From contig DFFP01000025.1 in assembly GCA_002372275.1 (NCBI GenBank), positions 2,157 through 66,156 on the forward strand: a stretch of DNA of 64,000 bases, given 5' to 3'. The translations under genes and the position numbers were made by a program. The stretch's first letter is position 1; each line of letters starts with the position of its first letter. This stretch comes from Alphaproteobacteria bacterium UBA3773 (GTDB lineage: Bacteria > Pseudomonadota > Alphaproteobacteria > RF32 > CAG-239). A model generated the notes under the pieces. It was not told the DNA's origin, did not search any database, and saw only the letters and a list, made by a program, of their open reading frames with translations. This document shows positions 1 through 63,975 of the stretch, piece by piece.

Positions 1-1390
<1,390 letters not shown>

Positions 1391-48020: not shown

Positions 48021-48226
48021 TGAATGGATTCTTCGCTTCGCTCTTAAGTGACGGTTTTTTTTATATTTTAGATGCCTAACTCGCGCCTTTGGCGCTCAGG
48101 CATGACAGAAAAGAGGAGAATAACGGTTCTTTGGATCTTCGGGACAAGCCCAAAGATGACGAGAAAGAGGATAAAAAAGGAATGGATCCTGACGTCACGC
48201 CTTTCGCCGTTCCTCTGGATGACGGT
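48021..48226 (+). repeat. Cluster of short palindromic REP/MITE-like elements 3' of paralogue D
   Basis: TGAATGGATTCTTCGCTTCGCTCTTAAGTGACGG (48021-48054). TGCCTAACTCGCGCC-TTT-GGCGCTCAGGCATGACAG (48073-48108). GGATCTTCGGGACAAGCCCAAAGATGACG (48133-48163). GGAATGGATCCTGACGTCACGCCTTTCGCCGTTCCTCTGGATGACGG (48179-48225). Confidence 0.75.
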
Positions 48227-48300
48227 TGTTTTTGAGACCCTTGAGCTCGGATATTGATATTTTAAATAAGGGTATTATCTTCTGCTTAAAGGAGATAATC

Positions 48301-48600
48301 ATGAAAAAAATAGGGATATTTTTTGTTTTGTGGCTTATGGCTTGTACTTACGGAGCAGGCGTTAATGAGAGTTTGACTTATCAATGTGGCGGGCAGATTG
48401 TGGATCTGGTATTTTCAGATGATGAAACGATTGTTATCAATATAAGCGGGCAAAATTATGTTTTAAATCAGGTGAATACTTCGGTTGGTGAGCAATATAT
48501 GAATGAAGAACAAAATATTATGGTTGTTACAGATGGCAATGACGTCTACGTCACAATCAACGGCGTTTCGTTTCCGCAATGCGCGCAAATAACAAAATAA
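48301..48600 (+). CDS. Small lipoprotein, possibly MliC-like (lysozyme-inhibitor fold)
   Basis: The ATG at 48301 gives MKKIGIFFVLWLMACTYG (lipobox LMAC). About 100 aa with YQCGG...VGEQY...FPQC spacing reminiscent of MliC. Weak, motif-only evidence. Confidence 0.4.
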   Translation: MKKIGIFFVLWLMACTYGAGVNESLTYQCGGQIVDLVFSDDETIVINISGQNYVLNQVNTSVGEQYMNEEQNIMVVTDGNDVYVTINGVSFPQCAQITK

Positions 48601-50649: not shown

Positions 50650-51155
50650 TTATTGTCTCCCGTATCTTCAAAGGTCGGCATATTTTCTGCCTGACCGCTC
50701 TCTTTTAATAGTTTGTTGACGACATCATCGATGTTCATACCGGCACCGGCCGTCGGATCATCTGTTTTGCTGAATTCGCCTAAAGCATCTTTCATTTTAG
50801 AAATTTCGTTCGGATCTTGTTTTAATTTGTCGGGTGATGTGTTGCTTTCAAGTTCTTGCTGGTAAACAGCTAAATTTTGTTGCAATGCATTGATTCCGCC
50901 GGCAATCTTGCGCTCAACATAAGGGTATAAGGCCGGTTTTGCTAAAATATAATTTCCGGTGTCGCAAATTTCTTCTAAAACATCTAATACGTAACCGTAA
51001 AAAGGATATTCTTCTAATGCGATATTTCCCATACGAATACAACGTGCGGCAATACGCGAAATGGTGCGCTCGTAATAATCTCTTAAAAGAAGATAATTAT
51101 CAATGTGCCAGATATCTTCTTTTGTGACGACGGATGAATTTTCATTTTGTTCCAT
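50646..51155 (-). CDS. Hypothetical soluble protein (169 aa) in the secretin operon
   Basis: AGAGGA Shine-Dalgarno sequence. No TM segment or signal peptide. Acidic C-terminus. Translationally coupled to the secretin gene. Confidence 0.55.
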   Translation of the reverse strand: MEQNENSSVVTKEDIWHIDNYLLLRDYYERTISRIAARCIRMGNIALEEYPFYGYVLDVLEEICDTGNYILAKPALYPYVERKIAGGINALQQNLAVYQQELESNTSPDKLKQDPNEISKMKDALGEFSKTDDPTAGAGMNIDDVVNKLLKESGQAENMPTFEDTGDNK

Positions 51156-51215: not shown

Positions 51216-53279
51216 TTATGCTTTATCCTCTTTGTTGTCGCTGTTAAGCTGATTGACAAGAGAATCGGTGTTTTCCTGATTTTGATCTGCAAACTGTGCA
51301 AGTAGTGCATCTGTATCCATTGCGTCTTCAGGCGCAGATGTGTTGCCATTATAGTTATCAGCAAACTCTGCAAGCAGGGCGTCACTGTCTAAGTTTTCAT
51401 CAGAGACCGGTATATTTTGATCATCAGGGTAAGAAAACTGACTTAACAGAGAGTCGGTATTATCGTTATTTTGATCAGTATATTGCGCAAGAAGAGCGTC
51501 ACTGTCTAACGCTTCATCTGAGGCCGGTAGATTTGGATCATTTTGAGAAGCAAATTGATCTGCAAAGTTCAGATTATCGTTATTTTGATCAGCATATTGT
51601 GCAAGCAGTGCGTCACTGTCTAACACTTCATCTGAGGCTGGTAGATTTGGATCATTTTGAGAAGCAAATTGATCTGCAAAGTCCGGATTATCGTTATTTT
51701 GATCGGCATATTGTGCAAGAAGAGCGTCACTGTCTAACACTTCATCTGAGGCCGGTAGATTTGGATCATTTTGAGAAGCAAATTGATCTAAAAGATTATC
51801 CATATGATCTGTTTCACTTGAAAAAGGCGTATCTGTTTGATCAGGGTTTTGATTGATTTGGGTGTCATAGTTGAATTGCTCGTCCGGTAAAGAGGAGTCT
51901 GATGTGATGTTGTAAGAATCACTTGCAGTATCATAAGAATTGATATCACTTGTCGTATCTTTATAAGGTAATGGATCTTGAGGGGCTACATCAGATGTGT
52001 TTGTCTCTTGGGGTAAAATTGTATCCGATGGCTCTTCAACATATTCCCATTCACTGTCATCATCGGAATCATCATCGGAATCTTCAATATACTCCCAATC
52101 CCAATCTTCATCGTTGTTGGAAGAATTTGAAAGTTGTTCCGTATTTTGTACATTAGAAGAGAATTCTGAATTTGTGGGCTGATTTTTTTCTTCAATCGGT
52201 GGTAAATCGTTGAGATCAGATTTTAAGGTTTCTGTTTGTGAATGGTCATTTAAGGACACAGGCGTGTCTGTAAAATCATCAAGCGAAACAGGTGTTTGGT
52301 CTATTTCAGGTACTGTGTTTTTTTCAGAAGACGATTTAAGCGTTGTGAAAATCTTTTTTGTTAAATTAAAAATGCTGTTTTTTGTTTCAGAACCTGTTTC
52401 TGAAACACTCGAATTTTCTTTTGTTTTTTCTTTTAAATCGGTCGATTTTTGATTATCGGAATGATTTGTTGCCGATATGGAAGAATCTTGTTTATTGTTA
52501 TCCTTATTCTTTTCTTTCTTGTCTTTTTTATCTTTTTTCTTATTTTTTTCGTTCTTTTTATTTTCGAGCGCGCTTTCTTCTTCGATTTCTTTTTCAACTT
52601 TTTCTTCAATCGGATCTGAAGCAACTTGCTTGTCTTGTATGATATCTTTTTCTTGTTCATCTTCCGGTTTCGGCGTTGGTTTGTTTTCCGGCTCATCTAA
52701 AACAGGGTTTATGTTTTTTTCAGCTGCAACGGTTTGCACGGCGACAGCTTGGGCACTTAATGCTTCTTTTAAGGTGTTTGCAATATTTTCTTGAGAACGC
52801 ACCATCATTTCAAAGAGCATTTCCATATCTTTAGCATGTTGAAGCTCGTTTTGTTTTAAAATACTTAAAATATCGCTGCTGATGGCATTACTGCTTGCAC
52901 TCACTTCAGGATTTTGAACATTTTGTTTGATATTGGATTCTTTTTCTTTGGTTTTCACAGATGATTGAAAGTTATGATCAACTGATGGTTTGGCCAAATC
53001 ATAGTTTTTGAAAGATGATTGAGTGTGTTTTTGATTTTCTTTTTCTTCAAGGTTTGCAATATGGTCAATTAAAATTGATCCGCCGGGCAGTGTGCTCAGT
53101 AAAATGCGTATGTTAGATGGAAGCTCTAATAATGAATCATCGAACTCTTTTTTTCTTTTATCGTTAAAAATATGAATTTGATGGAAAATATTAAGGTATC
53201 TTTGAGCAACTAAAATGGGATCTTCGTTGCCTTCATGGGTCCCCGTAAATTCTGCATCCTGGTTTAATTCATCTGACAT
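51216..53279 (-). CDS. Large, highly acidic low-complexity protein with C-terminal 38-aa tandem repeats
   Basis: 687 aa. About 100-aa ordered N-terminal domain (ILVAQRYLNIFHQIHIFNDKRKKEF...), Lys-rich patch (NKKKDKKDKKEKNK), Asp/Glu/Asn/Ser-rich middle, and repeats DQFASQNDPNLPASDEVLDSDALLAQYADQNNDN. Confidence 0.7.
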   Translation of the reverse strand: MSDELNQDAEFTGTHEGNEDPILVAQRYLNIFHQIHIFNDKRKKEFDDSLLELPSNIRILLSTLPGGSILIDHIANLEEKENQKHTQSSFKNYDLAKPSVDHNFQSSVKTKEKESNIKQNVQNPEVSASSNAISSDILSILKQNELQHAKDMEMLFEMMVRSQENIANTLKEALSAQAVAVQTVAAEKNINPVLDEPENKPTPKPEDEQEKDIIQDKQVASDPIEEKVEKEIEEESALENKKNEKNKKKDKKDKKEKNKDNNKQDSSISATNHSDNQKSTDLKEKTKENSSVSETGSETKNSIFNLTKKIFTTLKSSSEKNTVPEIDQTPVSLDDFTDTPVSLNDHSQTETLKSDLNDLPPIEEKNQPTNSEFSSNVQNTEQLSNSSNNDEDWDWEYIEDSDDDSDDDSEWEYVEEPSDTILPQETNTSDVAPQDPLPYKDTTSDINSYDTASDSYNITSDSSLPDEQFNYDTQINQNPDQTDTPFSSETDHMDNLLDQFASQNDPNLPASDEVLDSDALLAQYADQNNDNPDFADQFASQNDPNLPASDEVLDSDALLAQYADQNNDNLNFADQFASQNDPNLPASDEALDSDALLAQYTDQNNDNTDSLLSQFSYPDDQNIPVSDENLDSDALLAEFADNYNGNTSAPEDAMDTDALLAQFADQNQENTDSLVNQLNSDNKEDKA
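51453..51788 (-). repeat. In-frame 114-bp tandem repeat (three near-identical copies, with degenerate copies continuing to about 51219)
   Basis: The DNA repeats with a 114-nt period (gcgtcactgtctaac...gatcattttgagaagcaaattgatctgcaaag...). It encodes three 36-38-aa units plus two degenerate DSDALLA(Q/E)(Y/F)AD units. Confidence 0.85.
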
Positions 53280-53362: not shown

Positions 53363-53393
53363 AAAAAAAACACCTGTGAAAAGGTGTTTTTTT
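53363..53393. terminator. Hairpin terminator after the XRE regulator gene
   Basis: aaaaaaaacacct-gtgaaa-aggtgttttttt lies directly 3' of the stop at 53398 and is flanked by A and T runs. Confidence 0.55.
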
Positions 53394-53397
53394 ATCT

Positions 53398-54375
53398 TTA
53401 TAAGTCAATGGCAACTACTTTGTGTAAGTTTGTCAGATTGCTGTTGTCTATTTCAATTTTTTCATCCGGATTGAAACGCAAGCCGTAAAGCTGTCCTTTC
53501 TCATCTTCTCGGATACAAATAAACATTGCCTCTTCTTCTGAAATGTAATACAACGCAATGTCTCCGACGCTGACGGATTCTTGCGGATCAATAAATAACA
53601 CAGCACGATTGGAAAGAATATTGCCAAGTCTTCTGGTACATAAATTGACGGCATAGGCATCACGCTTGTTCATTAAACGGAAAGGACAAACAACTTCTTT
53701 GGCTTCTTCATCATCCATATCAATCAAAATATTTCCGTTGCTTGAAGGAGTTCCGAATACTTTCATTAACGGCATTTCACCCGTATAAACACCATACATG
53801 GAAACATGGCTGCCTTTCGGGGTGGCAAGAGATTTGTATTTAGCGTCTGTTTTTTCCATAATCTCATTGAGCTCGCCGGCGTCTTTTAATTTTTGAATTT
53901 CTGATTTTAAGGCATCAGGAGCTAAAGAAAGGGCTTTAGCGATATTTTTAAATTCTTTGTCGGATACTTCACGTTGGCCCATCTCAATACGGTGATAAAC
54001 AGATAATGTCATATCGGCGTTTTCGGCAACTTCAATAAGCGTTAAATCACGAATTGTTCTTAAACGGCGCAAAGCTGCACCTAAAACTTTTAAGCCGGCA
54101 TCTGTGTTGATTTTGTTACGTCTTTCTTGTTCACGACGCCAACTTTGAACAACTTCTTCTTTGGAGTTTTGTTCGTTAACATATAAATCTTGCAAAGAGC
54201 AATTTGTAAGCTCGGCAACGGAAATCAGTTGTTCCTGGCTTAAACGGCGATAACCCTTTTCAATTTTGGAAACAGCAGATAAACTGACACCTAAATGGTC
54301 GGCCAAAGCTTGCATTGAAACGCCTTTTCTCTTTCTTTGGAGCCTAATCTGATTTGGAAAAATAATCTCTTCCAT
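53398..54375 (-). CDS. Dual-HTH XRE-family transcriptional regulator with degenerate S24/LexA-like C-terminal domain
   Basis: HTH1: IRLQRKRKGVSMQALADHLGVSLSAVSKIEKG. HTH2: LRRLRTIRDLTLIEVAENADMTLSVYHRIEMG. The C-terminal beta-rich domain has GDIALYY where S24 proteins have GDIV, but no GDSM Ser or obvious Lys. Confidence 0.75.
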   Translation of the reverse strand: MEEIIFPNQIRLQRKRKGVSMQALADHLGVSLSAVSKIEKGYRRLSQEQLISVAELTNCSLQDLYVNEQNSKEEVVQSWRREQERRNKINTDAGLKVLGAALRRLRTIRDLTLIEVAENADMTLSVYHRIEMGQREVSDKEFKNIAKALSLAPDALKSEIQKLKDAGELNEIMEKTDAKYKSLATPKGSHVSMYGVYTGEMPLMKVFGTPSSNGNILIDMDDEEAKEVVCPFRLMNKRDAYAVNLCTRRLGNILSNRAVLFIDPQESVSVGDIALYYISEEEAMFICIREDEKGQLYGLRFNPDEKIEIDNSNLTNLHKVVAIDL

Positions 54376-54479: not shown

Positions 54480-57400
54480 TTAGCTTCCAGAATCAGGATT
54501 TTCGTTTGTTCCTTCCCAGCGGCTTCTGTATTCTTCACGCTGTTGTTCTTCTTGTTCGCGACGTTGTTCTTCTTGTGCACGTTCTTCTTGATCAGAAATC
54601 GCAAAATTTAAAAATTCTTCTAAAGTTGTTTTTTCGTGCTTGTTTCTCTGATTCTTACGCTCATTTTCTTGTTTGGCAAAGGCAACGCGATCTTCATCCG
54701 TTAAACCCCACATGGCAGAATTTGGATCAATGGAGGGGGCAAATCGGCCAAGCTGACCGCCAAAGTTCATCAGGTTTTGAACACTGCTGTTACGCACAAA
54801 TCGCTCATCGAAATTGTAGTGTGAAACAGCCTCTTTCCCCTCTTGTTTGGTCGTGGTACGCCGGACAACACCATTGTCGGTAATTTGTGTAATATTACCG
54901 TTTTTATCGGCCGTTCGCATGTGTATGAGCATTTGTCCGTTGAGAATTTCGCTGGTAACTACGGTTTGAGAACCATCGTTATTTATTTGTGTGATAATGG
55001 TTTTGCCGTCTTGATGAATGGTTTCGCGCGATTGAAATGAATTGGCAATATCCATATGCCTGTCTTTCATCACGGTGTGCATAATAGCCTCGTTCACCAG
55101 TTCTTGGGATAATCCGGTGTTTTGTCTTAAGTTTTCAATTAATGACATATTCAGTCTTCCGTCACGCTGAACAATATACTTATCGGCATCCGTTTTGAAA
55201 GCAAAATCGCGATGGACAATGTTGCCGTTTTGGTCTGTGACATTGCGAACTGCAAAAAATTGATCTTTTTGAACTGTATCTTGGAATTTGGGCGCACCTG
55301 ACAAATCTGTTTGATGATGTGCCCCGTAAGTGTTTGCAAAACTTTCAAGCTTGCTTCCTTTAGACGCAAGGGAGGCAAGGATTTTTGCTCTGAGAGATGC
55401 TGTGGATTTAGTCATCTCATATCCGCCAGCTGCGTTTTGCTTGATGTTCAGTGTTACTTGGCGTCCTCTTAAATTATGATGTGTGACATTAGCGCTGATG
55501 AGATTATGATTTTGATCAAACACTGTTTCGTTAAAGCCCCCGGAATGATTACGACGCGAAATCACCGTGTTTCCATCGGCATCGGTTGTTTTTTTAGCAA
55601 TCACTTCGCCTTTAGCATTGGTCATGGTGATGTTACCGTTTTCATCTTTATTGATGGTTCGTATAAGTTCACCGTTTTCGTTGAAAATTTGCTGTGTTTT
55701 TCCGTCGGCAGAGGTCGTTTGACTTTGACCGTTTTCAAGTTTCCCATTCAATAAATCTTCAACTTTTGCGGTGTTTGATAGGGTATTTGATAAACGTGCC
55801 TGATTAACTAAGCCTTGCGCGGCCCCTTTGATTTGTTCTTTAATACTGTGTTGTTGTTCGGAATATGAAAATGAGCCGTCTTTGTTGAGCATGGCAAAGC
55901 GCGTTGTTTTATGTGGGTTTAATTGATCAAAAAGTTTGTTTCCTTTGCCTTGACCGACATCTAATTTGTACCCGATAATATTGCCTTGATCATCTTTAAT
56001 GGCCTCACCGTTCTTTTTGACATTTTCCATCTTTTTTGCTATTCGGCGATTGCGGATAGGTGTGCCGATATAATAGCCACCTGCTGCCCAGCCGAATTTG
56101 CCTAGCTCTTTGCCTATGCCTAAGACGCCGCCGGAGCGTTTACCCGTTTCTTCATCTTTACCGCCTAAAGCTACTCTTTCAGCCGCTTGGGCAAAGAAAC
56201 CGCCTGTTTTACGGCCAATATCTAAATCCGGCGCTTTGGCAAATTCACCGGCTAATTTTGTTCCGTTATCTAAAAAGACCCAGCCGAGTAAACATATGGT
56301 CATTAGTTTAATAAAATTTACACCCCAAAAAGCAAGGCCCGTGAGCGGACTGACGATTTTTTTATAATCCGTAGCGTACGCATCAAGGCCTGAAAGGAGA
56401 TCTTGCGTGGCTTGCAAAATGATGTATAGAATAATACTTAAGAAAACAAATTGGAACATGGCGTTCATAAAGTAATCCCATATTTTTTTGAGGTATGAGG
56501 CTTGTTTTGGAAAGGCCCATGCACCAATGGCTGCCGGCATTAAGGCAGAGGCAATGGCCATGTTTAAGACGCAATCAATCAAGCACCATGGAAACGCCAA
56601 GACTAAAATCAGGCCGCCAATCATCAGAAGAAGACCGGTTAAGACATAGCCGGGGTTGGGGAGCATACCAAAAATAATTTTTTCGATGTACACGCCGATA
56701 CACACAACTTCTCTGCCGAATGCGACAATTTTCCAGACACCATCTTGCATGGTCTTGATGGCACATAAGATGTTTTGCCCCATGGAAACGGGCAGTGCGC
56801 CTTGTGATTTGTCGGTTAATTCTTTGTCATATCCCATTAAACCTTCCATATAAGAACCGGAACATTTGGTTTCAGTGGAAATGGTTTGAGCATAGGCCAT
56901 TCCTGTGTTGAAAACAGGGGCAAGAGTTAGTCTTAAAATATGAGCATAACTGACACGTAAAATCAAGACAACAAGCAAAACACGAAAGGCCTGAACAAGC
57001 CATTCTTGAATCATCTTTGAGGGTTTAACGGCTTGAAGTGCAGCAATATTTTTCAAAACAAATAAACCGGTCCAGAGCGCAAAGAAAATGACAACGACGA
57101 CCGCAATGCCGCCGGCTAATGTTTGATATGCTTTTTGTGCCAGACGACTTGCCGTGTTAAATAAAACCTTAAATATAGGACAAAAATAGCATTTGTCGCT
57201 ATCGGGCATATATTGGTGCCACTCACAGTCATTATTTGTTGTTTGAGCCATGCCTTCGCCTGCCGGAGTTTCGGTAATACCTGCCGCGTATGCAACACTT
57301 TTGCTTTGCTGAGCCGCGTCGCTTAAGGTTTCACGCGGTTCTCCCTCTTTTTTATCAAGACATTCTTCTGTTGAATAATCTTCAGATCCTCCGCCGCAAA

Positions 57401-58190
57401 GACTTTGAATATCTTCACATAAAGGATCAATTATGGATGATTTAATTGCTTGGTAACCTTTTGAAAAATCGCCGCTGTGAATTTCAAAATGAAGGTGCGG
57501 ACCATAAGGTTTACAAGGACCGTCCGGATAAGGATAGTCGCAAAGGGTGTTTGTGGCTGTGTGGTAGTTTGAACCGCCGACATGTCCGATCGGATCGCCT
57601 TTTTTGACATGACCTCCTGTTTTAATGTAATCTTTTAAGTGAAGATAAACTGTGACATATTTATTATCACAAGAGCCGGATGAACCTTTGGCCGAACACT
57701 TACATGCTTTGGTGTGTTCGATCATGATGGCACGTCCACCACCGCCTAAGGGTTTTGCCCAGACGATGTTGCCGTCAGCCGCGGCTGTGACAAGTGTGCC
57801 GGCATCGGCAGCATAGTCTGTGCCGAGGTGATTACGCGGTTTCGGGTTGCCACCGGCACCATTTGCACGATAACAGTTTGTTTCGGCAACTCTGTTAATT
57901 TTTGAAACAGGCATGGTATCTAGGCACGAACATGACTGCGCATTTCTGTTCATAATACACGCCGTGTCGACATCGTTTCGTTTGCCACTCGGACATGTTT
58001 TTTCAAGCTTGCCGCCGGAAGTTGAAAGCGTACATGTCCCGTTTGAACAATCTTTGCCGCCGCAAGAATCACCTGATGAAGAACGAGATGAAAAGTCAAA
58101 AAGCTGTGCACAGGCCAAATGGCTGTTTTCCACCATTAAGAACATGAAAAACAAAGAAAAAAACAAGTAATGTGATTTAATTTTTTTCAT
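54480..58190 (-). CDS. M23 peptidase / VirB6(TrbL)-like polytopic membrane protein fusion with long YD-like C-terminal extension
   Basis: Signal peptide. M23 motifs NHLGTD (HxxxD) and GPHLHFEIH (HxH) at aa ~105-255. VirB6-like TM core at aa ~320-640 (DKCYFCPIFKVLFNT, LMPAAIGAWAFPKQASYLKKIW). Hydrophilic tail of about 590 aa. Confidence 0.7.
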   Translation of the reverse strand: MKKIKSHYLFFSLFFMFLMVENSHLACAQLFDFSSRSSSGDSCGGKDCSNGTCTLSTSGGKLEKTCPSGKRNDVDTACIMNRNAQSCSCLDTMPVSKINRVAETNCYRANGAGGNPKPRNHLGTDYAADAGTLVTAAADGNIVWAKPLGGGGRAIMIEHTKACKCSAKGSSGSCDNKYVTVYLHLKDYIKTGGHVKKGDPIGHVGGSNYHTATNTLCDYPYPDGPCKPYGPHLHFEIHSGDFSKGYQAIKSSIIDPLCEDIQSLCGGGSEDYSTEECLDKKEGEPRETLSDAAQQSKSVAYAAGITETPAGEGMAQTTNNDCEWHQYMPDSDKCYFCPIFKVLFNTASRLAQKAYQTLAGGIAVVVVIFFALWTGLFVLKNIAALQAVKPSKMIQEWLVQAFRVLLVVLILRVSYAHILRLTLAPVFNTGMAYAQTISTETKCSGSYMEGLMGYDKELTDKSQGALPVSMGQNILCAIKTMQDGVWKIVAFGREVVCIGVYIEKIIFGMLPNPGYVLTGLLLMIGGLILVLAFPWCLIDCVLNMAIASALMPAAIGAWAFPKQASYLKKIWDYFMNAMFQFVFLSIILYIILQATQDLLSGLDAYATDYKKIVSPLTGLAFWGVNFIKLMTICLLGWVFLDNGTKLAGEFAKAPDLDIGRKTGGFFAQAAERVALGGKDEETGKRSGGVLGIGKELGKFGWAAGGYYIGTPIRNRRIAKKMENVKKNGEAIKDDQGNIIGYKLDVGQGKGNKLFDQLNPHKTTRFAMLNKDGSFSYSEQQHSIKEQIKGAAQGLVNQARLSNTLSNTAKVEDLLNGKLENGQSQTTSADGKTQQIFNENGELIRTINKDENGNITMTNAKGEVIAKKTTDADGNTVISRRNHSGGFNETVFDQNHNLISANVTHHNLRGRQVTLNIKQNAAGGYEMTKSTASLRAKILASLASKGSKLESFANTYGAHHQTDLSGAPKFQDTVQKDQFFAVRNVTDQNGNIVHRDFAFKTDADKYIVQRDGRLNMSLIENLRQNTGLSQELVNEAIMHTVMKDRHMDIANSFQSRETIHQDGKTIITQINNDGSQTVVTSEILNGQMLIHMRTADKNGNITQITDNGVVRRTTTKQEGKEAVSHYNFDERFVRNSSVQNLMNFGGQLGRFAPSIDPNSAMWGLTDEDRVAFAKQENERKNQRNKHEKTTLEEFLNFAISDQEERAQEEQRREQEEQQREEYRSRWEGTNENPDSGS

Positions 58191-58194
58191 AGTT

Positions 58195-60288
58195 TTATTC
58201 CTGACTTTCCTCTTTTTCTTTTTTCTCTTCCCAATCTGCCCATTCTTTTTGTCTTAAGTATTCTTCATTTGCTTTGGGTTTGTTGTTCTGCATGGCATCG
58301 CCCGTGCCTTCTAAAATTTTTCCGGGAACTTTCCATACATTTCCGACACCTTTAAGGAATTTATCACCGTATTTTTGAGTGTATGCCTCTCCATAATCTA
58401 GGACATTTTTGACGACAAATTTGGTGCGCCTATAACCATTTCTAACAGATTCACGAAGATCTACACCATTTTGAAGAGCTTTACTTGAAGCATTAATTGC
58501 TCCATTAACAATTATATCCGGTGTTTTTAAGGCAGCATTAGCAATTTTTAAGTGGGTTGTGGAAGCGACCGACGCAACTTTCGATGCAGTTCTGTAAAAA
58601 CTTGTTGCTATGTTACGGCGAATGCGTTTTTGTGCCCAATTAACCCATCCGTCTTCAGATTTTTCAGCTAATTTTCCATTATTGATGCGATCAACGTTTC
58701 TGTTTGCCCAATTAGCAATTTTTTGAGTTCTTCCTTCCAACATATTACTGAGTTTTTCTGAACTTTTATGGCGCCATTTGGCTAATTTATTTTCTGAAAA
58801 CGCTTGTTTTATTTCTTCTGCTTTATTGTTAATTTTTTGATTTAGATCGTTTAGAGGACCTTTTTTAAGCAATTTTCTATCAAGCGAATCCTTGAGAATT
58901 TCAAGTTTTTCATTTGCCTCTTGTTGATTTTGAGCATGCCACTCGGCAGCTTTTTGAGGGATATCCAGCACGCCGGAATTGTTAATGGCTTGCCTCAAAG
59001 CTGACGGATTGGCGTTTCTTTGTGCTTCATTTTGACGAATCTGGGCATTGATATTGTCTATATTGTTTTGGTAATTTTCTTTTTTTGTTTGTGCCTGTTG
59101 GGCAACAGTTTCGTTGGCAGCATTTTTTTGTTCGGCAACGTGTGCTTGAAAAGCTTCTCTTCCCTCGCCGGAGAGTATGGCTGAACCAAGGGTGCTTTTA
59201 AGCCCGAATTTAATATTATTACCTCTTTGCTTAAAATATTTTTCTACGGAAGCGCCACCGCTTCTAAGATTTGCTAATGCCTTCTTGCTTGTTTCTTTCG
59301 GATTTCGAATGGCAACGCCTGCCTGATGTATACCGCTTTTGATTTGATTATGATATTTCCCTTGTATGAGTTTTCCGGTACCTGATACAACGTGTCCGCC
59401 TAAATTGTTTACAACATCACGTGTATAGGCGGCCACAGGTGCCACGGCTTTTTGTTTGACAAAGTCAACGCCTTGGGTTGAGAGCATATGCATTGGTGAG
59501 GCTTTTGAGCCTTTACCAAACATTTGATCGGGGAAAAATTTGTCAACATAATCCGGAATGGTGGATCCAATCATTTTCATGCCATAAATGAGGACAACAA
59601 CAATAAGTAAAAATGTACCGGAAGTAAGTGAAAATGTTTCAGAAACAAATGTCGTTTTATTGTGTGTTAAGGCATCCATAATAGGTGGAAGAGCACCTAA
59701 AGCTTCAATCAGCATATTTAATGCATAGGCGGTTGTGATGGAAAGAAAAACAAGAATGCCGGCACTTTTTAAGAAAACACTGATACAAACCATGAGTTTG
59801 TCTTTGGTCCATGAAAACGGCCATAAAGCAATTGCAATCGGCAGAACGATAATTGAAAAACCCAATTTAAATGAAACATCTACAATATAAAACGTGACAC
59901 TTAACACGAGCATAAATCCGAAACAATAAACAATTGCACCGCAAAGCCATATCGGAATGTTTGCCCAATCAAAAAGATGGATACCTAAAACTGTAGCCTC
60001 CCACGGATCACCATAAACAGCATGACACATTAAAGTATCTCCTAAGACCTGGATACTTATCAGGTTATCCGAAATATTTTGAACGCTGTTTGAAAAATTA
60101 TTTAACAAGCTTATGGGGATAATACTGCCTTTTAAGGAAACATCTTGGAATGTAGGCTTAGCTTTTGCTTTAAGAACTGCACATTTACTTTGTTTTTCAG
60201 ACCTCGAAAGAGCATAACCCTCAGAAGTCGGCAAAACAAAAAAGGTTGTTAAAATAAGTAAAAGAAATATGCATATCTTTTTAACCAC
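58195..60288 (-). CDS. VirB6(TrbL)-like protein, C-terminal half of the TM core plus long basic/coiled extension
   Basis: GTG start preceded by GGAGGA. TLMCHAV...FYIVDVSFKLGFSIIVLPIAIALWPFSWTKDKL aligns with the second half of the 458-aa paralogue. About 430-aa hydrophilic tail. Confidence 0.65.
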   Translation of the reverse strand: MVKKICIFLLLILTTFFVLPTSEGYALSRSEKQSKCAVLKAKAKPTFQDVSLKGSIIPISLLNNFSNSVQNISDNLISIQVLGDTLMCHAVYGDPWEATVLGIHLFDWANIPIWLCGAIVYCFGFMLVLSVTFYIVDVSFKLGFSIIVLPIAIALWPFSWTKDKLMVCISVFLKSAGILVFLSITTAYALNMLIEALGALPPIMDALTHNKTTFVSETFSLTSGTFLLIVVVLIYGMKMIGSTIPDYVDKFFPDQMFGKGSKASPMHMLSTQGVDFVKQKAVAPVAAYTRDVVNNLGGHVVSGTGKLIQGKYHNQIKSGIHQAGVAIRNPKETSKKALANLRSGGASVEKYFKQRGNNIKFGLKSTLGSAILSGEGREAFQAHVAEQKNAANETVAQQAQTKKENYQNNIDNINAQIRQNEAQRNANPSALRQAINNSGVLDIPQKAAEWHAQNQQEANEKLEILKDSLDRKLLKKGPLNDLNQKINNKAEEIKQAFSENKLAKWRHKSSEKLSNMLEGRTQKIANWANRNVDRINNGKLAEKSEDGWVNWAQKRIRRNIATSFYRTASKVASVASTTHLKIANAALKTPDIIVNGAINASSKALQNGVDLRESVRNGYRRTKFVVKNVLDYGEAYTQKYGDKFLKGVGNVWKVPGKILEGTGDAMQNNKPKANEEYLRQKEWADWEEKKEKEESQE

Positions 60289-61042
60289 CGCTTCCTCCGT
60301 TGATATATGTTTGTACTATATTGTTTCCGAGTGCTGAAACGGAATCGGCTACATCAATACCCATTTCTAGAATAGGAACGAGTGTGTAATGTAAAATAGT
60401 GGACATGCCGGAATTAATAATCACAAGAGCCAATACAACCTTAAAGCATTGAACAAAAAATTCTTGCAAAAGTTTCATCGGTTCAACGGAAGTAAACGCT
60501 GTGACATTTTTGAAAACAAAAAAAGCCAGCCAGATCATCATACACACAAGTGCAACCGCATTGGCTGCCTGCCGGGATATATCATAGGCATGGGAAGCTG
60601 CTGTGATAAAGGCAGAGATAAGAGTTTTAATAATAATGCAACCGTAACAGGTGGAATATTTTATAAAGAAATTTGACGCAATACACTGTTTGCCTCTTCG
60701 GTGTGAACCTTCTATAAGACCAAGGTACCCGTTGTAGGTGTCACCTGAAATACCGCCATCTTTTGCATGTGAACAATCACCCGAAGGTTTTGATGACGAG
60801 CAATAAAAAACTTCTTTGTGCTTTTGTTGAATACACAGTGTCCACATGTTACATTCCCACTCATGGCATTTATAACATTTGTTGTCTTTTAGATTACACA
60901 TGTTCATATCGCCATCATCCTTCATACCGCATACAACTTCGACTTTTCCGCTTGAGGGATCGGGCATTAAACGCTGAGATAAAGCAGGTTTTGAACTTAA
61001 GATTAACAAGAAGAGAAGAATATGAAAGAAGATATGTTTCAT
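60281..61042 (-). CDS. VirB6(TrbL)-like protein, N-terminal half only (Cys-rich periplasmic region plus first TM segments)
   Basis: Signal peptide and Cys-rich region. STCYGCIIIKTLISA and FVFKNVTAFTSVEPMKLLQEFFVQCFKVVLALVII align with the first half of the paralogues. Ends GGSGG and overlaps the next ORF by 8 nt. Confidence 0.6.
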   Translation of the reverse strand: MKHIFFHILLFLLILSSKPALSQRLMPDPSSGKVEVVCGMKDDGDMNMCNLKDNKCYKCHEWECNMWTLCIQQKHKEVFYCSSSKPSGDCSHAKDGGISGDTYNGYLGLIEGSHRRGKQCIASNFFIKYSTCYGCIIIKTLISAFITAASHAYDISRQAANAVALVCMMIWLAFFVFKNVTAFTSVEPMKLLQEFFVQCFKVVLALVIINSGMSTILHYTLVPILEMGIDVADSVSALGNNIVQTYINGGSGG

Positions 61043-61043
61043 T

Positions 61044-62357
61044 TTATTCTCTCCCTGCCAGTTTGTTCATGCGCTCTTGCATTTCTTGTTTCATATGTTG
61101 AGCTTTTTCATGAATCTCTTTTAACTTTTGATTTTTATCAATAACGGATGTAAATACTTTGCTTGCGCCTGCAGTAAAGGAAGAAAGAACTTTTTTAGCA
61201 GCAGAAGCTGCCGCTTTTGCAATTTTCTTTTGGAAATCTGTTCCGGCACCGCCGCCGACAAGTGTGCCCGCTAAGGCAACCGAAATTTCAATACTCTTTA
61301 AAACCAAAAATCCGATTAAAATGAGTGATAATGGCATAATCCCGGCATCAGTAAAGTTTTCGGTTATAAAAAGATCGTAGTTGTTAAGTATAATCATTTG
61401 CATTGCGGCCAGCGACATAGAAACCATAATGGCTATAAATGCCATAATAGCCGCCGAATTTAAAACTGATACAAAACCTGTTTTCGTCCATTTTCGGCTG
61501 AATTTGAACGGATAAGCCATAATAAAACAAGGAAGAAGTATTAACATAATTGTCATGCGGAAAATACTATCGATGATATAAAAAACAAAATCAAGTTTTA
61601 CAATAGCAAAAATGGCAAATAAAATAATCCCGCAAACAACAGAGGATAAAGAGGCAATACCTAAAAGTTTTGTTGCAAGTTGAAAACCGATGTTCATACG
61701 ATCGTTAACCGCACAGGTCAAACACTGCATCATAAAAGAAGGACCTTGCGGAAAATGATTGGCATCGACAACTTCCAAAGCAGGAGGTTCGCATACAATC
61801 GGTTGATCATAAATGAGGCAAAAGCCGTCTTCTTCGTTTCCGAGATATATACCGTCGCTATTACCGCCAAGTTGCATTGAATTTAAGACAGCCCCTCCAT
61901 ATTCTAAAAAAGCGTAGTATATCGGAAAAACGAGTTTATTTAAGACAAACATTAAAAATCCGGTCTGTGAGGCCAATATACCGCAGACAAAGCACGTGAA
62001 AAACATACGCGTTATTTCAGTCCAGACTTCAGAAATGTTTTCAGGAACAACCGATGAAACGTGTTTCAAAAGTCTGATGGAAAGCCAGACAGCAAAGGCC
62101 ATCATCATAAACGGCATGGCACTTTTGGTCACTTTCGGGTAGGCGGCCATGGCTGCTTTTCCCATAACTCTATAAAACGCACTTAAGATGGATGCTTGCC
62201 AACAAGTACGTTGCTGCTCATCCAAATCACTTTCTTCGCCGGCAACAGGCTCATCTTTAATAAGCCCCTCGTCGTTACAAGCTGTTAACATCATAACGGA
62301 ACAGACAATCATTAAGATTGTTCTTAAAAATTTGAATATGTTTTTTTTCTGTTCCAT
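61044..62357 (-). CDS. VirB6(TrbL)-like polytopic membrane lipoprotein
   Basis: Lipobox MLTAC. TM core with MMQCLTCAV and LLPCFIMAYPFKFSRKWTKTGF. Gly/Ala-rich then coiled C-terminus. Confidence 0.65.
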   Translation of the reverse strand: MEQKKNIFKFLRTILMIVCSVMMLTACNDEGLIKDEPVAGEESDLDEQQRTCWQASILSAFYRVMGKAAMAAYPKVTKSAMPFMMMAFAVWLSIRLLKHVSSVVPENISEVWTEITRMFFTCFVCGILASQTGFLMFVLNKLVFPIYYAFLEYGGAVLNSMQLGGNSDGIYLGNEEDGFCLIYDQPIVCEPPALEVVDANHFPQGPSFMMQCLTCAVNDRMNIGFQLATKLLGIASLSSVVCGIILFAIFAIVKLDFVFYIIDSIFRMTIMLILLPCFIMAYPFKFSRKWTKTGFVSVLNSAAIMAFIAIMVSMSLAAMQMIILNNYDLFITENFTDAGIMPLSLILIGFLVLKSIEISVALAGTLVGGGAGTDFQKKIAKAAASAAKKVLSSFTAGASKVFTSVIDKNQKLKEIHEKAQHMKQEMQERMNKLAGRE

Positions 62358-62405
62358 GTTTCCTCGTTTTTATTTTTTGTATATTTGTCAGATTTGAATG
62401 ATATT

Positions 62406-63782
62406 TTATGTTGTCCCGCCGGAACCACCTGAGCCTGAGCCGGAGCCACCTGAGCCTGAGCCGGAACCACCTGAGCCTGAGCCGGCAAATTTAGCACGCG
62501 CTGCATCGTTTCGGGCTGCGATTCGATCTTTTACACCCTTCATTGCACCTGTGGCTCCCGTGACATCTGCGATACCTTTTGCGGCACTCGTTGTCGCGCG
62601 TTTGGCTACTTGAGCTGCCAAACCACCAATCTTACCACCGATGTTTGTGCCGCCTGAGGTACCTGAAATATCATTAGCTAACTGATTAATTTGTTCAATC
62701 AATTTGAAAGCAAAAATACATGAGGCAATCAATACTAAAAATTTACCATTACCGAAGTCAAAAACACTTTTTAATTCATCGACCCTATCACTGTCAATAA
62801 GATCCATCAGGTCATCTGCTGTCATACCGCCACCGCTTAAGGCCTGCATCACCAGTTCGGTAGTAAGCGAAATCACAAGCCCCATCATAATAAAGTTAAA
62901 GGCTGTGTTCATAAAAATATCCCAACCGGCTTTGGTGTATTTTGCTGTGACCTTAAACGGCCATGCGGCAATTAAAAAAGGAAGTAACGTGCAGAAAATA
63001 CCGAAACGCACAACCGAGTCTAAAAGATAAAAACAAGCAGCCAGTGAAATCATCCAGCCAAATCCGTACACAACAAGGCCTTGGATAAACATACTGATGT
63101 CTATCAAAAATTCAGCAGCACGGTGTGTCGAAGCGCACATTAAAGCGGTTCCGACAGCAGGGAGTGTTGCGGTTGAATTGCTGAAAGTTTTAATAGCACC
63201 TTTGACCTGAGCCATCAAATCTACAGAAATGACACCTTTTTGCATTTCAGATTTAGCAGCTTCTGTAGCACTTTGCATGGTGCTTAAAGCCTCTTCATCA
63301 ATAATGGTCAAACCAAACTCAAGAGAAGCTGACATTAAAGGATTGATGATATAGTGATAGGCAAAATTGGAATTTGTCAGAAAAAGCGCTGCAACCAAAG
63401 CCTTGAATGCCTGAAATAAAATGCTTTGCAGATATTTACCTGTATCTTGCTTTGTCAGCGCGGTGACAGTGATTAATGTTTGATAAGCAATAAAAAGCGC
63501 CATTACCACGATCACAACGTTTCGAAAACTGGCAGCAAGAGCACTAAATGAGCTGGTCGCCATGGCTTGATCGGTGTTTAAAATGACCTGAAACACAGGG
63601 CAGAGAATACATTGACCGATGTCAGACATAATTTCGGGTACTTTACGGCAATCGTCAGCAAAGACTTGGCCTGTGTATAAAAGTGCCGTTGTAAATACTA
63701 ACATAAAACAAACAAAAGACAAAGAAGATAAAGAACATCTCTGTTTGATGTTATTGATTATACTGTTTATTTTATTTTTCAT
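62406..63782 (-). CDS. VirB6(TrbL)-like polytopic membrane protein with Gly/Ser-repeat C-terminus
   Basis: GQCILCPVFQVILNT, ALMCASTH, YLLDSVVRFGIFCTLLPFLIAAWPFKVTAKYTKAGW. C-terminal GTSGGTNIGGKIGG...GSGSGGSGSGSGGSGSGSGGSGG. Confidence 0.7.
   Translation of the reverse strand: MKNKINSIINNIKQRCSLSSLSFVCFMLVFTTALLYTGQVFADDCRKVPEIMSDIGQCILCPVFQVILNTDQAMATSSFSALAASFRNVVIVVMALFIAYQTLITVTALTKQDTGKYLQSILFQAFKALVAALFLTNSNFAYHYIINPLMSASLEFGLTIIDEEALSTMQSATEAAKSEMQKGVISVDLMAQVKGAIKTFSNSTATLPAVGTALMCASTHRAAEFLIDISMFIQGLVVYGFGWMISLAACFYLLDSVVRFGIFCTLLPFLIAAWPFKVTAKYTKAGWDIFMNTAFNFIMMGLVISLTTELVMQALSGGGMTADDLMDLIDSDRVDELKSVFDFGNGKFLVLIASCIFAFKLIEQINQLANDISGTSGGTNIGGKIGGLAAQVAKRATTSAAKGIADVTGATGAMKGVKDRIAARNDAARAKFAGSGSGGSGSGSGGSGSGSGGSGGTT
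62415..62483 (-). repeat. In-frame Gly-Ser microsatellite-like repeat
   Basis: ccgccggaaccacctgagcctgagccggagccacctgagcctgagccggaaccacctgagcctgagcc: imperfect 18-nt period encoding (GSGSGG)n at the extreme C-terminus. Confidence 0.8.
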
Positions 63783-63975
63783 GTTCTTTATCCTTGTTTT
63801 GGTCTGCTCTTAAAAAAGGAATACCAAGTACCTTTACAGCTGCCGCGATGGCAATACACAAAAAGATAAAGCTTGTCCATATAAAAGCGGTACTTGATAA
63901 AATGTCAAAAACCTTAAACCGAATTAAAAGTAAAACGGCTCCGAAAAGTAAAAATGTTATCAATACCGATTTCAT
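63772..63975 (-). CDS. Small two-TM membrane protein at the head of the VirB6-like array
   Basis: 67 aa with two hydrophobic segments. AGGAAAAAG Shine-Dalgarno sequence. Its 3' end overlaps the next gene by 11 nt. No VirB2 or VirB3 motif recognised. Confidence 0.45.
   Translation of the reverse strand: MKSVLITFLLFGAVLLLIRFKVFDILSSTAFIWTSFIFLCIAIAAAVKVLGIPFLRADQNKDKEHEK

What the first reader, a model, noticed from the sequence alone, without database searches (positions are those of the whole stretch)
54480..63975. Tight operon of four tandem VirB6/TrbL-like membrane units (five ORFs), resembling a Rickettsiales rvh-style T4SS channel array
Five consecutive minus-strand ORFs (62406-63782, 61044-62357, 60281-61042, 58195-60288, 54480-58190) are spaced from -11 to +48 nt, and each has a purine-rich, GGAG-like Shine-Dalgarno sequence. 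They share collinear blocks. (i) A Cys pair just before TM1: GQCILCPVFQVILNT / DKCYFCPIFKVLFNT / STCYGCIIIKTLISA. (ii) FVLKNIAALQAVKPSKMIQEWLVQAFRVLLVVLIL / FVFKNVTAFTSVEPMKLLQEFFVQCFKVVLALVII / YQTLITVTALTKQDTGKYLQSILFQAFKALVAALFL. (iii) LLPFLIAAWPFKVTAKYTKAGW / LLPCFIMAYPFKFSRKWTKTGF / VLPIAIALWPFSWTKDKL / LMPAAIGAWAFPKQASYLKKIW. From memory, block (iii) in a multi-TM context matches the conserved TM / aromatic / basic-loop / Trp segment of TrbL/VirB6 (PF04610). Tandem VirB6 amplification with long hydrophilic extensions is the known hallmark of rvh T4SSs in Rickettsia and Anaplasmataceae. What is unusual here: no VirB3, VirB4, VirB8-11 or VirD4 lies in the window; a 67-aa two-TM gene, not virB4, directly precedes the array; and the CxxC(P)xF motif is family-specific. 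The array reaches the right window edge, so upstream components may lie beyond 64000.
Basis: partly seen in the sequence, partly recalled or inferred. Interest (0 to 1): 0.72.

Follow-up and report, generated by a model that had tools for sequence, protein, structure and literature searches.

The report
VirB6-like gene array beside a secretin
Five adjacent genes encode four very divergent copies of VirB6, the central stalk protein of type IV secretion systems; they sit in a conserved chromosomal cluster with an outer-membrane secretin and no secretion ATPase, found across many uncultured gut Alphaproteobacteria, and this may be an undescribed kind of envelope-spanning machine.

Summary
Five tightly packed minus-strand ORFs encode four paralogous polytopic units; the third is split into two genes.

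They are remote VirB6/TrbL homologues:
- Profile-profile match to plasmid VirB6 proteins: 93.5% probability, E 2e-7.
- The top six PDB fold hits are R388 TrwI/VirB6.
- The window's own proteins stay below Pfam's threshold.

The "rvh-style T4SS" reading is only partly supported. No VirB3, VirB4, VirB8-11, VirD4 or any secretion ATPase lies in the 64-kb oriC-proximal window, just beyond its edge (a hydrolase-like gene, then 16S rRNA), or in about 90 related loci.

Instead the array belongs to an 11-12-gene cluster: 2-TM protein, four VirB6-like units (one carrying an intact M23 peptidase), an XRE regulator, two cytoplasmic proteins, a lipoprotein secretin and a bitopic protein. The cluster recurs in many uncultured gut and rumen Alphaproteobacteria while its flanks vary. 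It is absent from plasmid and viral collections.

Best reading: a VirB6-like stalk or platform coupled to a secretin, energy source unknown. Whether T4SS genes lie elsewhere in these genomes could not be tested.

The parts
63772..63975 (-). O0: 67-aa two-TM hairpin protein. It overlaps the O1 start by 11 nt and is conserved upstream of U1 (consensus ..ALKVLGNPF).
   Evidence: It is fused in frame to U1 in L027. No detectable similarity to VirB3 (TrwM) or VirB2 (TrwL).
62406..63782 (-). U1 (O1, 458 aa): VirB6-like unit with a signal peptide, invariant Cys45/Cys58/Cys61, a core of about 5 hydrophobic helices and a Gly-rich basic C-terminal tail.
   Evidence: AF2 model pLDDT 75.5. Top PDB fold hits are TrwI/VirB6. 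13 of 40 family members hit PF04610 weakly. hhalign vs VirB6: 38.7%, E 3e-4, same register as U4.
61044..62357 (-). U2 (O2, 437 aa): the most divergent VirB6-like unit. Predicted lipoprotein (lipobox LTAC), no CxxC pair, and Phe at the VirB6 Trp position.
   Evidence: (lipobox in 58 of 77 orthologues). hhalign vs U4: 99.6%, E 2e-23. hhalign vs VirB6: 72.5%, E 3e-5 over the signature region.
60281..61042 (-). U3N (O3, 253 aa): N-terminal half of unit 3. Contains a signal peptide, a Cys-rich periplasmic head, the CxxC motif and the first two hydrophobic helices.
   Evidence: Aligns to residues 132-243 of the fused U3 in L075.
58195..60288 (-). U3C (O4, 697 aa, GTG start): C-terminal half of unit 3. 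Has its own new signal peptide, the remaining hydrophobic helices with block (iii), and a 450-aa hydrophilic tail.
   Evidence: Aligns to residues 270-528 of the fused U3 in L075. The fission point lies in the loop between helices 2 and 3.
54480..58190 (-). U4 (O5, 1236 aa): signal peptide, Cys-rich region, M23 peptidase domain (aa 120-239, nt 57474-57833), VirB6-like core (aa about 316-672, nt 56175-57245) and a 560-aa hydrophilic tail.
   Evidence: Peptidase_M23 1.7e-17; TrbL 16.9 bits, below the cut-off. HLGTD and HLH motifs are intact. Core family vs plasmid VirB6: hhalign 93.5%, E 2.2e-7, 250 columns. The orthologue in L053 passes the TrbL cut-off at 32.7 bits.
53398..54375 (-). XRE-type regulator (325 aa) with two HTH_3 domains. 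It always follows U4.
53364..53393 (.). Terminator-like hairpin (12-bp stem, T and A runs on both sides) between the regulator and D687.
51216..53279 (-). D687: conserved N-terminal domain of about 100 aa followed by a long acidic, repetitive, probably disordered region.
   Evidence: Follows the regulator in about 58 of 62 loci that have room. 114-nt tandem repeat, 3.8 copies, at 51357-51789. No Pfam family.
50646..51155 (-). D169: small, highly conserved, probably cytoplasmic helical protein.
   Evidence: No significant match to any solved structure by sequence.
49402..50649 (-). D415: lipoprotein secretin with a lipobox Cys17, N0/N1-type domains and a secretin barrel.
   Evidence: Family of 905 proteins, none with a Pfam hit. 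AF2 pLDDT 73. The top 45 PDB fold hits are nearly all secretins: PilQ 2e-9, BfpB 4e-9, InvG, GspD. tblastn E 1e-5 to an annotated secretin in a GspE/GspF operon.
48629..49390 (-). D253: bitopic membrane protein with a Q/N/Y-rich N-terminal region, one TM helix and a highly conserved C-terminal domain of about 85 aa.
   Evidence: No match to solved structures.

Best explanation
The five ORFs encode four ancient, highly diverged 'extended VirB6-like' paralogues, U1 to U4. U3 has split into two genes.

They belong to a vertically inherited chromosomal cluster: (lipoprotein)-A283-O0-U1-U2-U3-U4-XRE regulator-D687-D169-secretin-D253.

Proposed mechanism (inferred). The four units, each exported by its own signal peptide or lipobox, assemble into a hetero-oligomeric VirB6-type stalk or platform at the inner membrane and periplasm. 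Solved VirB6 is a pentamer. Their N-terminal periplasmic heads include an active-looking M23 endopeptidase on U4, and other cell-wall hydrolase domains in relatives; these would open the peptidoglycan locally, the job VirB1 does in T4SSs. The stalk would connect to the lipoprotein secretin D415 in the outer membrane, possibly through the bitopic D253. The long basic or hydrophilic tails, D169 and D687 would lie on the cytoplasmic side. The XRE protein would regulate the cluster. Substrate and energy source are unknown, because no ATPase is encoded in the cluster.

Shown: paralogy, VirB6 homology, the M23 motifs, the secretin fold, conserved gene order, and absence of ATPases nearby. Inferred: physical coupling of the array and the secretin, heteromeric assembly, and a transport function.
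For: VirB6 homology:
- hhalign of the U4 core vs nine MPF_T plasmid VirB6 proteins: 93.5%, E 2e-7, 250 columns, with the signature residues aligned.
- U2 and U1 hit the same register.
- Fold hits 1-6 are TrwI/VirB6 at probability 0.99 or higher.
- The L053 orthologue passes the Pfam TrbL cut-off.

All units are homologous over their full cores. Order and number of units are conserved in about 75 species loci.

Peptidoglycan-hydrolase heads: M23 with intact HxxxD and HxH motifs in O5 and about 53 of 66 orthologues; a VgrG3-like C domain in L053 U4; Hydrolase_2 in L089 U3.

Secretin.

Linkage of the two blocks: a D687-like gene follows the regulator in about 58 of 62 loci, and D169, the secretin and D253 follow wherever sequence extends. 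In L088 the D block has moved to the other side of an inverted regulator but remains adjacent. Outer flanks differ: rRNA or htpG/glgX on the left; efflux genes, a two-component system or ATP synthase on the right.

No Walker A motif occurs in any cluster protein. No ATPase lies in the window or flanks. The family is absent from plasmids and viral contigs.
Against: - Functional coupling of the array and the secretin rests on gene neighbourhood only. Related genomes share synteny by descent, and in L003/L012 rpsB-tsf follows the regulator instead.
- A terminator-like hairpin separates the regulator from D687, so there are at least two transcription units.
- Every known VirB6 works with a VirB4 ATPase, and every known secretin works with an inner-membrane platform and an ATPase. 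None is seen here, and the rest of the genomes could not be inspected.
- The window's own proteins do not reach Pfam's TrbL threshold. Sequence-profile searches of PDB do not reach TrwI.
- The secretin has no Pfam hit, and its whole-chain TM-scores are low at 0.15-0.27.
- The VirB6 Trp is replaced in U2 and U3.
Confidence: 0.45

Rival explanations
1. Rickettsiales-style scattered T4SS. The array is the VirB6 module of a P-type (rvh-like) T4SS whose VirB3, VirB4, VirB8-11 and VirD4 genes lie at other chromosomal sites. The neighbouring secretin block would be unrelated or only accessory.
For: The VirB6 homology is real. Tandem co-transcribed extended VirB6 paralogues with signal peptides, a lipobox and long hydrophilic tails are otherwise known from Rickettsiales, where T4SS genes are split over several loci and one rvhB6 gene is split in one strain (PMC2653234; PMC7648143). 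All known VirB6 proteins work with VirB4 (PMC12857230). The rest of the genomes was not inspected.
Against: In Rickettsiales the array directly follows virB3-virB4. Here no locus from about 90 species shows that. O0 shows no similarity to VirB3 or VirB2. The Trp that is invariant in all Rickettsiales paralogues is lost in U2 and U3. The conserved neighbours are a secretin block. The hosts are not Rickettsiales.
Confidence: 0.27
2. Two unrelated neighbours, or not a transport device at all. The VirB6-like proteins would be membrane anchors or regulators for cell-wall hydrolases, acting in envelope growth, division or remodelling. The secretin would serve a pilus or T2SS encoded elsewhere.
For: The cluster is core-genome-like: oriC-proximal, next to the rRNA operon, vertically inherited, and not on mobile elements. 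The only recognisable enzyme domains are peptidoglycan hydrolases. No ATPase is present. A terminator lies between the blocks.
Against: About 11 of 66 U4 orthologues lack the M23 domain yet keep the VirB6-like core, so the core is the conserved element. Four distinct paralogues held in fixed order suggest an assembled structure. The secretin sits in a conserved four-gene block with no pilus or T2SS genes, and it stays next to the array through a rearrangement and across changing outer flanks.
Confidence: 0.2
3. Not VirB6 homologues. The resemblance would be convergence among hydrophobic helical membrane proteins.
For: Pfam hits of the window proteins are below threshold. Identity to VirB6 in the profile alignment is about 12%. 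Foldseek E-values are modest at 5e-3.
Against: Three independent unit profiles hit the same register of the VirB6 profile, with the four invariant VirB6 residues aligned. Only VirB6 chains reach probability above 0.35 in the fold search. One orthologue exceeds Pfam's curated cut-off, and 13 of 40 U1 relatives hit PF04610 and essentially nothing else.
Confidence: 0.05

Closest known systems
Rickettsiales rvh T4SS VirB6 arrays (RvhB6a-e of Rickettsia; VirB6-1..4 of Anaplasmataceae)
   Same: Four to five tandem, co-oriented, tightly spaced VirB6-like paralogues that are about 75-80% divergent from each other. Each has an 'extended' architecture with N- and C-terminal hydrophilic regions, and some are predicted lipoproteins or carry signal peptides. 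One paralogue is split in some genomes. VirB5 is absent. Sources.
   Different: The array is not preceded by virB3-virB4, and no T4SS gene lies within 10 kb in about 90 loci. The Trp that is invariant in all Rickettsiales paralogues is kept only in U1 and U4. The window proteins fail Pfam's TrbL threshold, whereas all RvhB6 proteins retrieve PF04610. The heads carry peptidoglycan hydrolases. The array is linked to a secretin. The hosts are extracellular gut or rumen Alphaproteobacteria with a full cell-wall gene set nearby, not Rickettsiales.
Canonical VirB6/TrbL of MPF_T conjugative T4SSs (R388 TrwI, pKM101 TraD, A. tumefaciens VirB6; PF04610)
   Same: The same fold by prediction. The same signature region (GP..I ... 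W .....N) after the third hydrophobic helix. A similar number of hydrophobic helices. Sources.
   Different: About 12% identity. There is an extra N-terminal segment with CxxC. The proteins are much longer. There are four paralogues rather than one gene. The genes are chromosomal and vertically inherited, and are absent from plasmids. No adjacent VirB5, Eex lipoprotein, VirB4 or VirB8 is present, as there is in every plasmid locus fetched.
Lipoprotein secretins of type IVb pili (BfpB, TcpC, R64 PilN) and other secretins (PilQ, GspD, InvG)
   Same: D415 has a lipobox, N0/N1-like domains and a secretin-type barrel by fold. It also has weak sequence similarity to an annotated secretin. Sources.
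   Different: It has no Pfam Secretin hit and is short at 415 aa. It is not accompanied by a GspE/PilB-type ATPase, a GspF/PilC platform or pilins, unlike the Rhodoferax operon it matches.
VirB1-type cell-wall hydrolases of T4SSs, including the multi-domain Gram-positive PrgK (LytM/SLT/CHAP)
   Same: A peptidoglycan hydrolase dedicated to a cell-envelope machine. A LytM/M23 domain is used in some T4SSs (PMC12857230).
   Different: Here the hydrolase is fused to the N-terminus of a VirB6-like subunit. I found no described example of such a fusion.

Membership tests
TrbL/VirB6 (PF04610) | Match to the Pfam model at the curated gathering score by the window's own proteins | tested here: not met
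   Only O5 hits, at 16.9 bits against a 25.9 cut-off, E 0.0057. O1-O4 give no hit.
TrbL/VirB6 (PF04610) | Family-level homology to bona fide VirB6 proteins | tested here: met
   hhalign of the U4 core vs nine MPF_T VirB6 proteins: 93.5%, E 2.2e-7, 250 columns. U2: 72.5%. U1: 38.7% in the same register. The L053 U4 orthologue scores 32.7 bits, above the cut-off. 13 of 40 U1 relatives hit PF04610.
TrbL/VirB6 (PF04610) | Fold like solved VirB6 (R388 TrwI) | tested here: met
   Foldseek ranks 1-6 are TrwI chains, probability 0.99-1.0, TM normalised by target 0.48-0.59, E from 5e-3. No other protein exceeds probability 0.35. The model has pLDDT 75.5.
TrbL/VirB6 (PF04610) | Conserved loop with the essential Trp (TrwI W199) plus the flanking Pro and Asn | tested here: inconclusive
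   Pro is at least 90% conserved in all four units. Trp is kept in U4 (at least 90%) and U1 (majority), but is Phe in U2 and Leu in U3. Asn is kept in U1, U2 and U4.
TrbL/VirB6 (PF04610) | Encoded with a VirB4-family ATPase and other T4SS subunits | tested here: not met
   None in the 64-kb window, none upstream of the edge, and none in the flanks of about 90 loci. The rest of the genome was not testable.
Rickettsiales rvh T4SS | Tandem array of several extended VirB6 paralogues | tested here: met
   Four units, or five in some lineages, with N- and C-terminal extensions.
Rickettsiales rvh T4SS | Array directly downstream of rvhB3-rvhB4 | tested here: not met
   Upstream lie O0 (no VirB3 or VirB2 similarity), an alpha/beta-hydrolase-like gene and a 16S rRNA gene.
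Rickettsiales rvh T4SS | RvhB8-B11 and RvhD4 islands elsewhere in the genome | not testable with these tools
   Only the 64-kb window and 10-kb flanks of related loci can be read.
Rickettsiales rvh T4SS | Host belongs to Rickettsiales | tested here: not met
   All 80 loci kept come from gut or rumen MAGs. Nearly all are labelled Alphaproteobacteria, Azospirillum or Ca. Scatocola, and a few bins carry other names. NCBI places Ca. Scatocola in Rhodospirillales.
Secretin superfamily (for D415) | Secretin fold with N0/N1 domains and a C-terminal barrel | tested here: met
   37 PDB hits at E 1e-3 or better, nearly all secretins. The N0 domains of EscC and MxiD match with TM normalised by target 0.48. 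tblastn E 1e-5 to an annotated secretin.
Secretin superfamily (for D415) | Pfam Secretin or Secretin_N match | tested here: not met
   0 of 36 family members hit any secretin model.
Peptidase M23 (for the O5 head) | Pfam match above the cut-off and intact HxxxD and HxH metal ligands | tested here: met
   63.8 bits against a 28.7 cut-off. HLGTD at residue 121 and HLH at residue 232.

The most novel reading that the evidence does not exclude
The cluster encodes a previously undescribed type of diderm envelope-spanning apparatus. A hetero-oligomeric stalk built from four or five VirB6-like paralogues, each with a built-in peptidoglycan-hydrolase or Cys-rich head, would dock to a lipoprotein secretin. 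It would work without a VirB4-family ATPase, with no T4SS core in the genome. It would be a lineage-wide, vertically inherited core feature of uncultured gut Alphaproteobacteria.
Probability: 0.3. Interest if true: 0.9.

Novelty: new variant of a known kind. Interest (0 to 1): 0.7.

Why it matters
VirB6 is the least understood conserved T4SS subunit, and the role of 'extended' and multiplied VirB6 proteins is an acknowledged open question (PMC12857230).

This is a second, independent lineage with a fixed array of four or five extended VirB6 paralogues. It occurs in free-living, cell-wall-bearing gut bacteria rather than obligate intracellular Rickettsiales. It is linked to a secretin rather than to VirB3/VirB4.

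If the two blocks work together, it would be the first VirB6-secretin hybrid. It would show that the VirB6 stalk module can be recruited outside the T4SS.

If a T4SS core is found elsewhere in these genomes, rvh-type architecture would not be restricted to Rickettsiales. That would give a more tractable comparison for asking why VirB6 multiplies.

Either way it assigns a fold and a probable role to about 1,700 protein clusters now labelled hypothetical, in a widespread but uncultured group of human, livestock and poultry gut bacteria.

Tried and rejected
- Single-sequence Pfam and NCBIfam scans of the five ORFs gave almost nothing.
- Sequence-profile searches of PDB with the U1 and U4 families did not reach TrwI. 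Only fold and profile-profile comparison did.
- tblastn of a U4 core against 72,556 plasmids found no match. A viral-contig scan found no relative. A mobile-element or phage origin is therefore rejected.
- The exhaustive profile search found 1,709 clusters, but the 150 listed are all close U1-type proteins. It gave no bridge to classical VirB6.
- Extending the contig: every assembly breaks 1.4-2 kb upstream at the rRNA operon.
- O0 as VirB3 or VirB2: no similarity.
- O3/O4 as a frameshifted pseudogene: rejected. The split is conserved across a clade, arose again independently in another clade, and O4 has its own signal peptide.
- A hidden ATPase: no Walker A motif in any cluster protein.
- D253 and D169 profiles against PDB: nothing significant. 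The best D169 hits are CesA-type T3SS chaperones at E about 0.3.
- Literature: no paper links this lineage, a VirB6-secretin pairing or an M23-VirB6 fusion.
- A phylogeny with RvhB6 and Anaplasma VirB6 was not possible, because no such sequences are reachable with these tools.

Full report
**1. Observation**

The ORF listing shows six consecutive minus-strand ORFs:
- O0, 63772-63975, 67 aa
- O1, 62406-63782, 458 aa
- O2, 61044-62357, 437 aa
- O3, 60281-61042, 253 aa
- O4, 58195-60288, 697 aa, GTG start
- O5, 54480-58190, 1236 aa

The gaps are -11, +48, +1, -8 and +4 nt. Each start is preceded by a purine-rich GGAG/GAGG-like stretch. All three quoted peptide blocks are present in the named ORFs.

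BLASTP among the ORFs gives O1-O5 E 7e-27 (25% identity over 383 aa), O1-O4 1e-15, O3-O5 3e-15, O1-O2 7e-10 and O1-O3 4e-7. O3 matches the N-terminal half of a unit and O4 the C-terminal half. Family profiles confirm full-length homology: U1 vs U4 at 100%, E 3e-54, and U2 vs U4 at 99.6%, E 2e-23.

**2. Are they VirB6/TrbL?**

Direct hmmscan is nearly negative. Only O5 hits PF04610, at 16.9 bits against the 25.9 cut-off, and NCBIfam gives nothing. Four further lines of evidence establish remote homology.

- (a) Pfam hits in relatives. 13 of 40 U1 relatives hit PF04610 and essentially nothing else, best E 8e-6. A distant U4 orthologue (L053) scores 32.7 bits, above the cut-off.
- (b) Fold. An AlphaFold2 model of O1 (pLDDT 75.5, pTM 0.68) finds TrwI/VirB6 of the R388 T4SS as PDB ranks 1-6, with probability 0.99-1.0 and TM normalised by target 0.48-0.59. 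No other protein exceeds probability 0.35.
- (c) Profile-profile comparison. I fetched R388 TrwI and eight other VirB6 genes from MPF_T plasmids, each sitting next to virB5 and eex genes. The U4 core family matches this VirB6 family at 93.5%, E 2.2e-7, over 250 columns. U2 matches at 72.5% and U1 at 38.7%, all in the same register.
- (d) Signature residues. W199 is the essential Trp discussed in PMC2653234 and PMC7648143.

Per unit, the Pro is at least 90% conserved everywhere. The Trp is kept in U4 and mostly in U1, but is Phe in U2 and Leu in U3. The CxxC motif is invariant in U1, common in U3 and U4, reduced to one Cys in U2, and absent from plasmid VirB6.

**3. Anatomy of the units**

All units begin with a signal peptide. 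U2 has a lipobox (LTAC in O2; 58 of 77 orthologues). Hydropathy shows about five hydrophobic helices per unit. Loop charges in O1 fit an N-out/C-in topology, with the signature loop and the tail on the basic side.

U4 carries an M23 peptidase domain at aa 120-239 (63.8 bits). Its HLGTD and HLH metal ligands are intact in O5 and in about 53 of 66 orthologues, while about 11 orthologues lack the domain. In other lineages the heads carry a VgrG3-like C-terminal domain (L053 U4, 27.7 bits) or a SleB-type Hydrolase_2 domain (L089 U3, 29 bits).

The C-terminal tails are 73 to 564 aa long and hydrophilic. They are alignable only among close relatives.

U3 is a single gene of 517-884 aa in 40 loci. 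It is split in the window's clade and, independently, in a second clade that also has two U1 copies. The break lies in the loop between helices 2 and 3, and O4 has gained its own signal peptide. This is a viable gene fission, not decay.

**4. Context**

The window is oriC-proximal chromosome. It carries gyrB, leuS, gltX, rho, coaE, parAB, rsmG, mnmG, mnmE, mutS, dsbD, sucCD, suf genes and an AcrAB-TolC-type pump. It contains no T4SS, T2SS or T4P component.

The contig that encodes O1 continues about 1.9 kb past the window edge. It holds a 283-aa alpha/beta-hydrolase-like gene (A283) and then the 5' end of a divergent 16S rRNA gene, where the assembly stops.

A scan of one genome per species found 174 matching stretches. 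All 80 loci kept are gut or rumen MAGs, nearly all labelled Alphaproteobacteria, Azospirillum or Ca. Scatocola (a few bins carry other names). Almost all sit 2-3 kb from a contig end. NCBI files Ca. Scatocola under Rhodospirillales. I believe, from memory only, that this is the GTDB order RF32.

Gene order is conserved in about 75 loci: (150-aa lipoprotein)-A283-O0-U1-U2-U3-U4-XRE regulator. O0 is conserved, is fused in frame to U1 in L027, and is not detectably VirB3- or VirB2-like.

**5. The downstream block**

Downstream of the regulator the window has D687, D169, D415 and D253.

- With ORFs that run off the locus end included, and with iterative search, a D687-like gene follows the regulator in about 58 of 62 loci that have room.
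- D169, D415 and D253 homologues follow wherever sequence extends.
- In L088 the D block lies on the other side of an inverted regulator but is still adjacent to the array.
- The outer flanks differ between lineages: efflux genes in the window, a two-component system with uvrC and recN in L089, ATP synthase in L091, and htpG/glgX instead of rRNA on the left in L014.
- The exception is L003/L012, where rpsB-tsf follows the regulator.

D415 is a lipoprotein belonging to a family of 905 proteins that carry no Pfam annotation. Its AlphaFold2 model (pLDDT 73) hits secretins almost exclusively: PilQ 2e-9, the lipoprotein secretin BfpB 4e-9, InvG, GspD, PulD and pIV, plus N0 domains. tblastn finds an annotated secretin at E 1e-5, inside a normal GspE/GspF operon on a Rhodoferax plasmid.

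D253 is bitopic, with a highly conserved C-terminal domain of about 85 aa. D169 is a conserved helical protein. D687 has a conserved N-terminal domain and acidic tandem repeats.

No cluster protein has a Walker A motif.

**6. Interpretation**

The VirB6 identification is solid; I put it at about 0.9. The rvh analogy holds for the array itself: tandem, highly divergent, extended paralogues, some of them lipoproteins, with an occasional gene split.

The defining genomic context is absent, however, and the conserved partner is a secretin block.

My best reading (confidence 0.45) is a single envelope-spanning apparatus with these parts:
- a hetero-oligomeric VirB6-type stalk or platform (solved VirB6 is a pentamer);
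- built-in peptidoglycan hydrolase heads playing the VirB1 role;
- a secretin as the outer-membrane portal;
- D253 as a possible connector;
- D169, D687 and the unit tails on the cytoplasmic side.

Energy source and substrate are unknown.

The rivals are a scattered rvh-like T4SS whose core lies elsewhere (0.27), two unrelated modules or a wall-remodelling role (0.2), and no real VirB6 homology (0.05).

The decisive test is a whole-genome scan of these MAGs for VirB4-family and GspE-family ATPases.

**7. Novelty**

All members are annotated as hypothetical proteins. The family comprises about 1,709 clusters at 50% identity. It is absent from plasmids and viral contigs. I found no paper describing it, a VirB6-secretin pairing, or an M23-VirB6 fusion.

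I file it as a new variant of a known kind: extended VirB6 arrays. I put the chance that it is a categorically new machine at about 0.3.

Noticed in passing
L001:1-563 (about window 65316-65878, beyond the edge); also L026 and L053 upstream regions: A 16S rRNA gene (5' part, 515 bits) lies divergently about 0.4 kb upstream of A283. Nearly all assemblies of this lineage break here, which is why the cluster sits 2-3 kb from a contig end in most MAGs.
   Followed up: partly
L001:984-1835 (about window 64044-64895, beyond the edge): A283 is a 280-aa protein with a weak alpha/beta-hydrolase signature and a very conserved N-terminus (FFTxGGxQFWEDVFYYQKWRIQRH). It always sits just upstream of O0. In many relatives it is preceded by a 150-aa lipoprotein that the window's genome lacks. 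Its function and its membership of the system are unknown.
   Followed up: partly
window 51357-51789: A 114-nt tandem repeat (3.8 copies, 86% matches) encodes acidic 38-aa repeats (..DSDALLAQYADQNNDN..) in D687. The protein's length varies from about 400 to 860 aa between species.
   Followed up: partly
window 62418-62485: A 21-nt repeat (3.2 copies) encodes a GSGSGGS-type tail at the C-terminus of O1.
   Followed up: no
window 48226-48600 (+) and 47196-48011 (+): Directly beyond D253, on the opposite strand, lie a small lipoprotein with an MliC (lysozyme-inhibitor) domain at Pfam threshold (22.6 bits) and a 271-aa Cys-rich secreted protein with no family. A hydrolase inhibitor next to a cluster rich in wall hydrolases may be more than coincidence.
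   Followed up: no
L027:1529-3133: O0 and U1 form one 534-aa reading frame in this species. This is a possible natural fusion supporting an O0-U1 interaction. It rests on my own ORF call and was not checked for sequencing error.
   Followed up: no
L046, L070, L073, L076, L077, L080, L083: One sub-lineage has two U1-type genes, giving five units, sometimes with O0 between them. It also has an independent split of U3 into parts of about 170-190 and 610-900 aa.
   Followed up: partly
L053:13561-17556; L089:71-2545: Other cell-wall hydrolase domains occupy the unit heads in relatives: a T6SS VgrG3-like C-terminal domain next to M23 in U4, and a SleB-type Hydrolase_2 domain in U3.
   Followed up: partly
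window 50646-51155 (D169): The best sequence-profile hits in PDB are the T3SS filament chaperones CesA/CesAB (2lhk, 1xou), at E 0.3-0.5. This is not significant, but both top hits belong to the same family.
   Followed up: no
L064, L083, L084: Three loci with the typical alphaproteobacterial cluster come from bins labelled Bacteroidaceae or Lachnospiraceae. This is probably mis-binning or mislabelling of those MAGs.
   Followed up: no
window 5417-6340 (-): A BspA-type leucine-rich-repeat protein (LRR_5, E 7e-10) is encoded among housekeeping genes. Proteins of this type are typical of host-associated bacteria.
   Followed up: no
window 53398-54375 (-): The XRE regulator has two HTH_3 domains plus a C-terminal region of about 130 aa. 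By eye this region resembles an S24/LexA-type beta domain lacking the catalytic Ser. Its first 45 residues are almost identical across the whole lineage.
   Followed up: no
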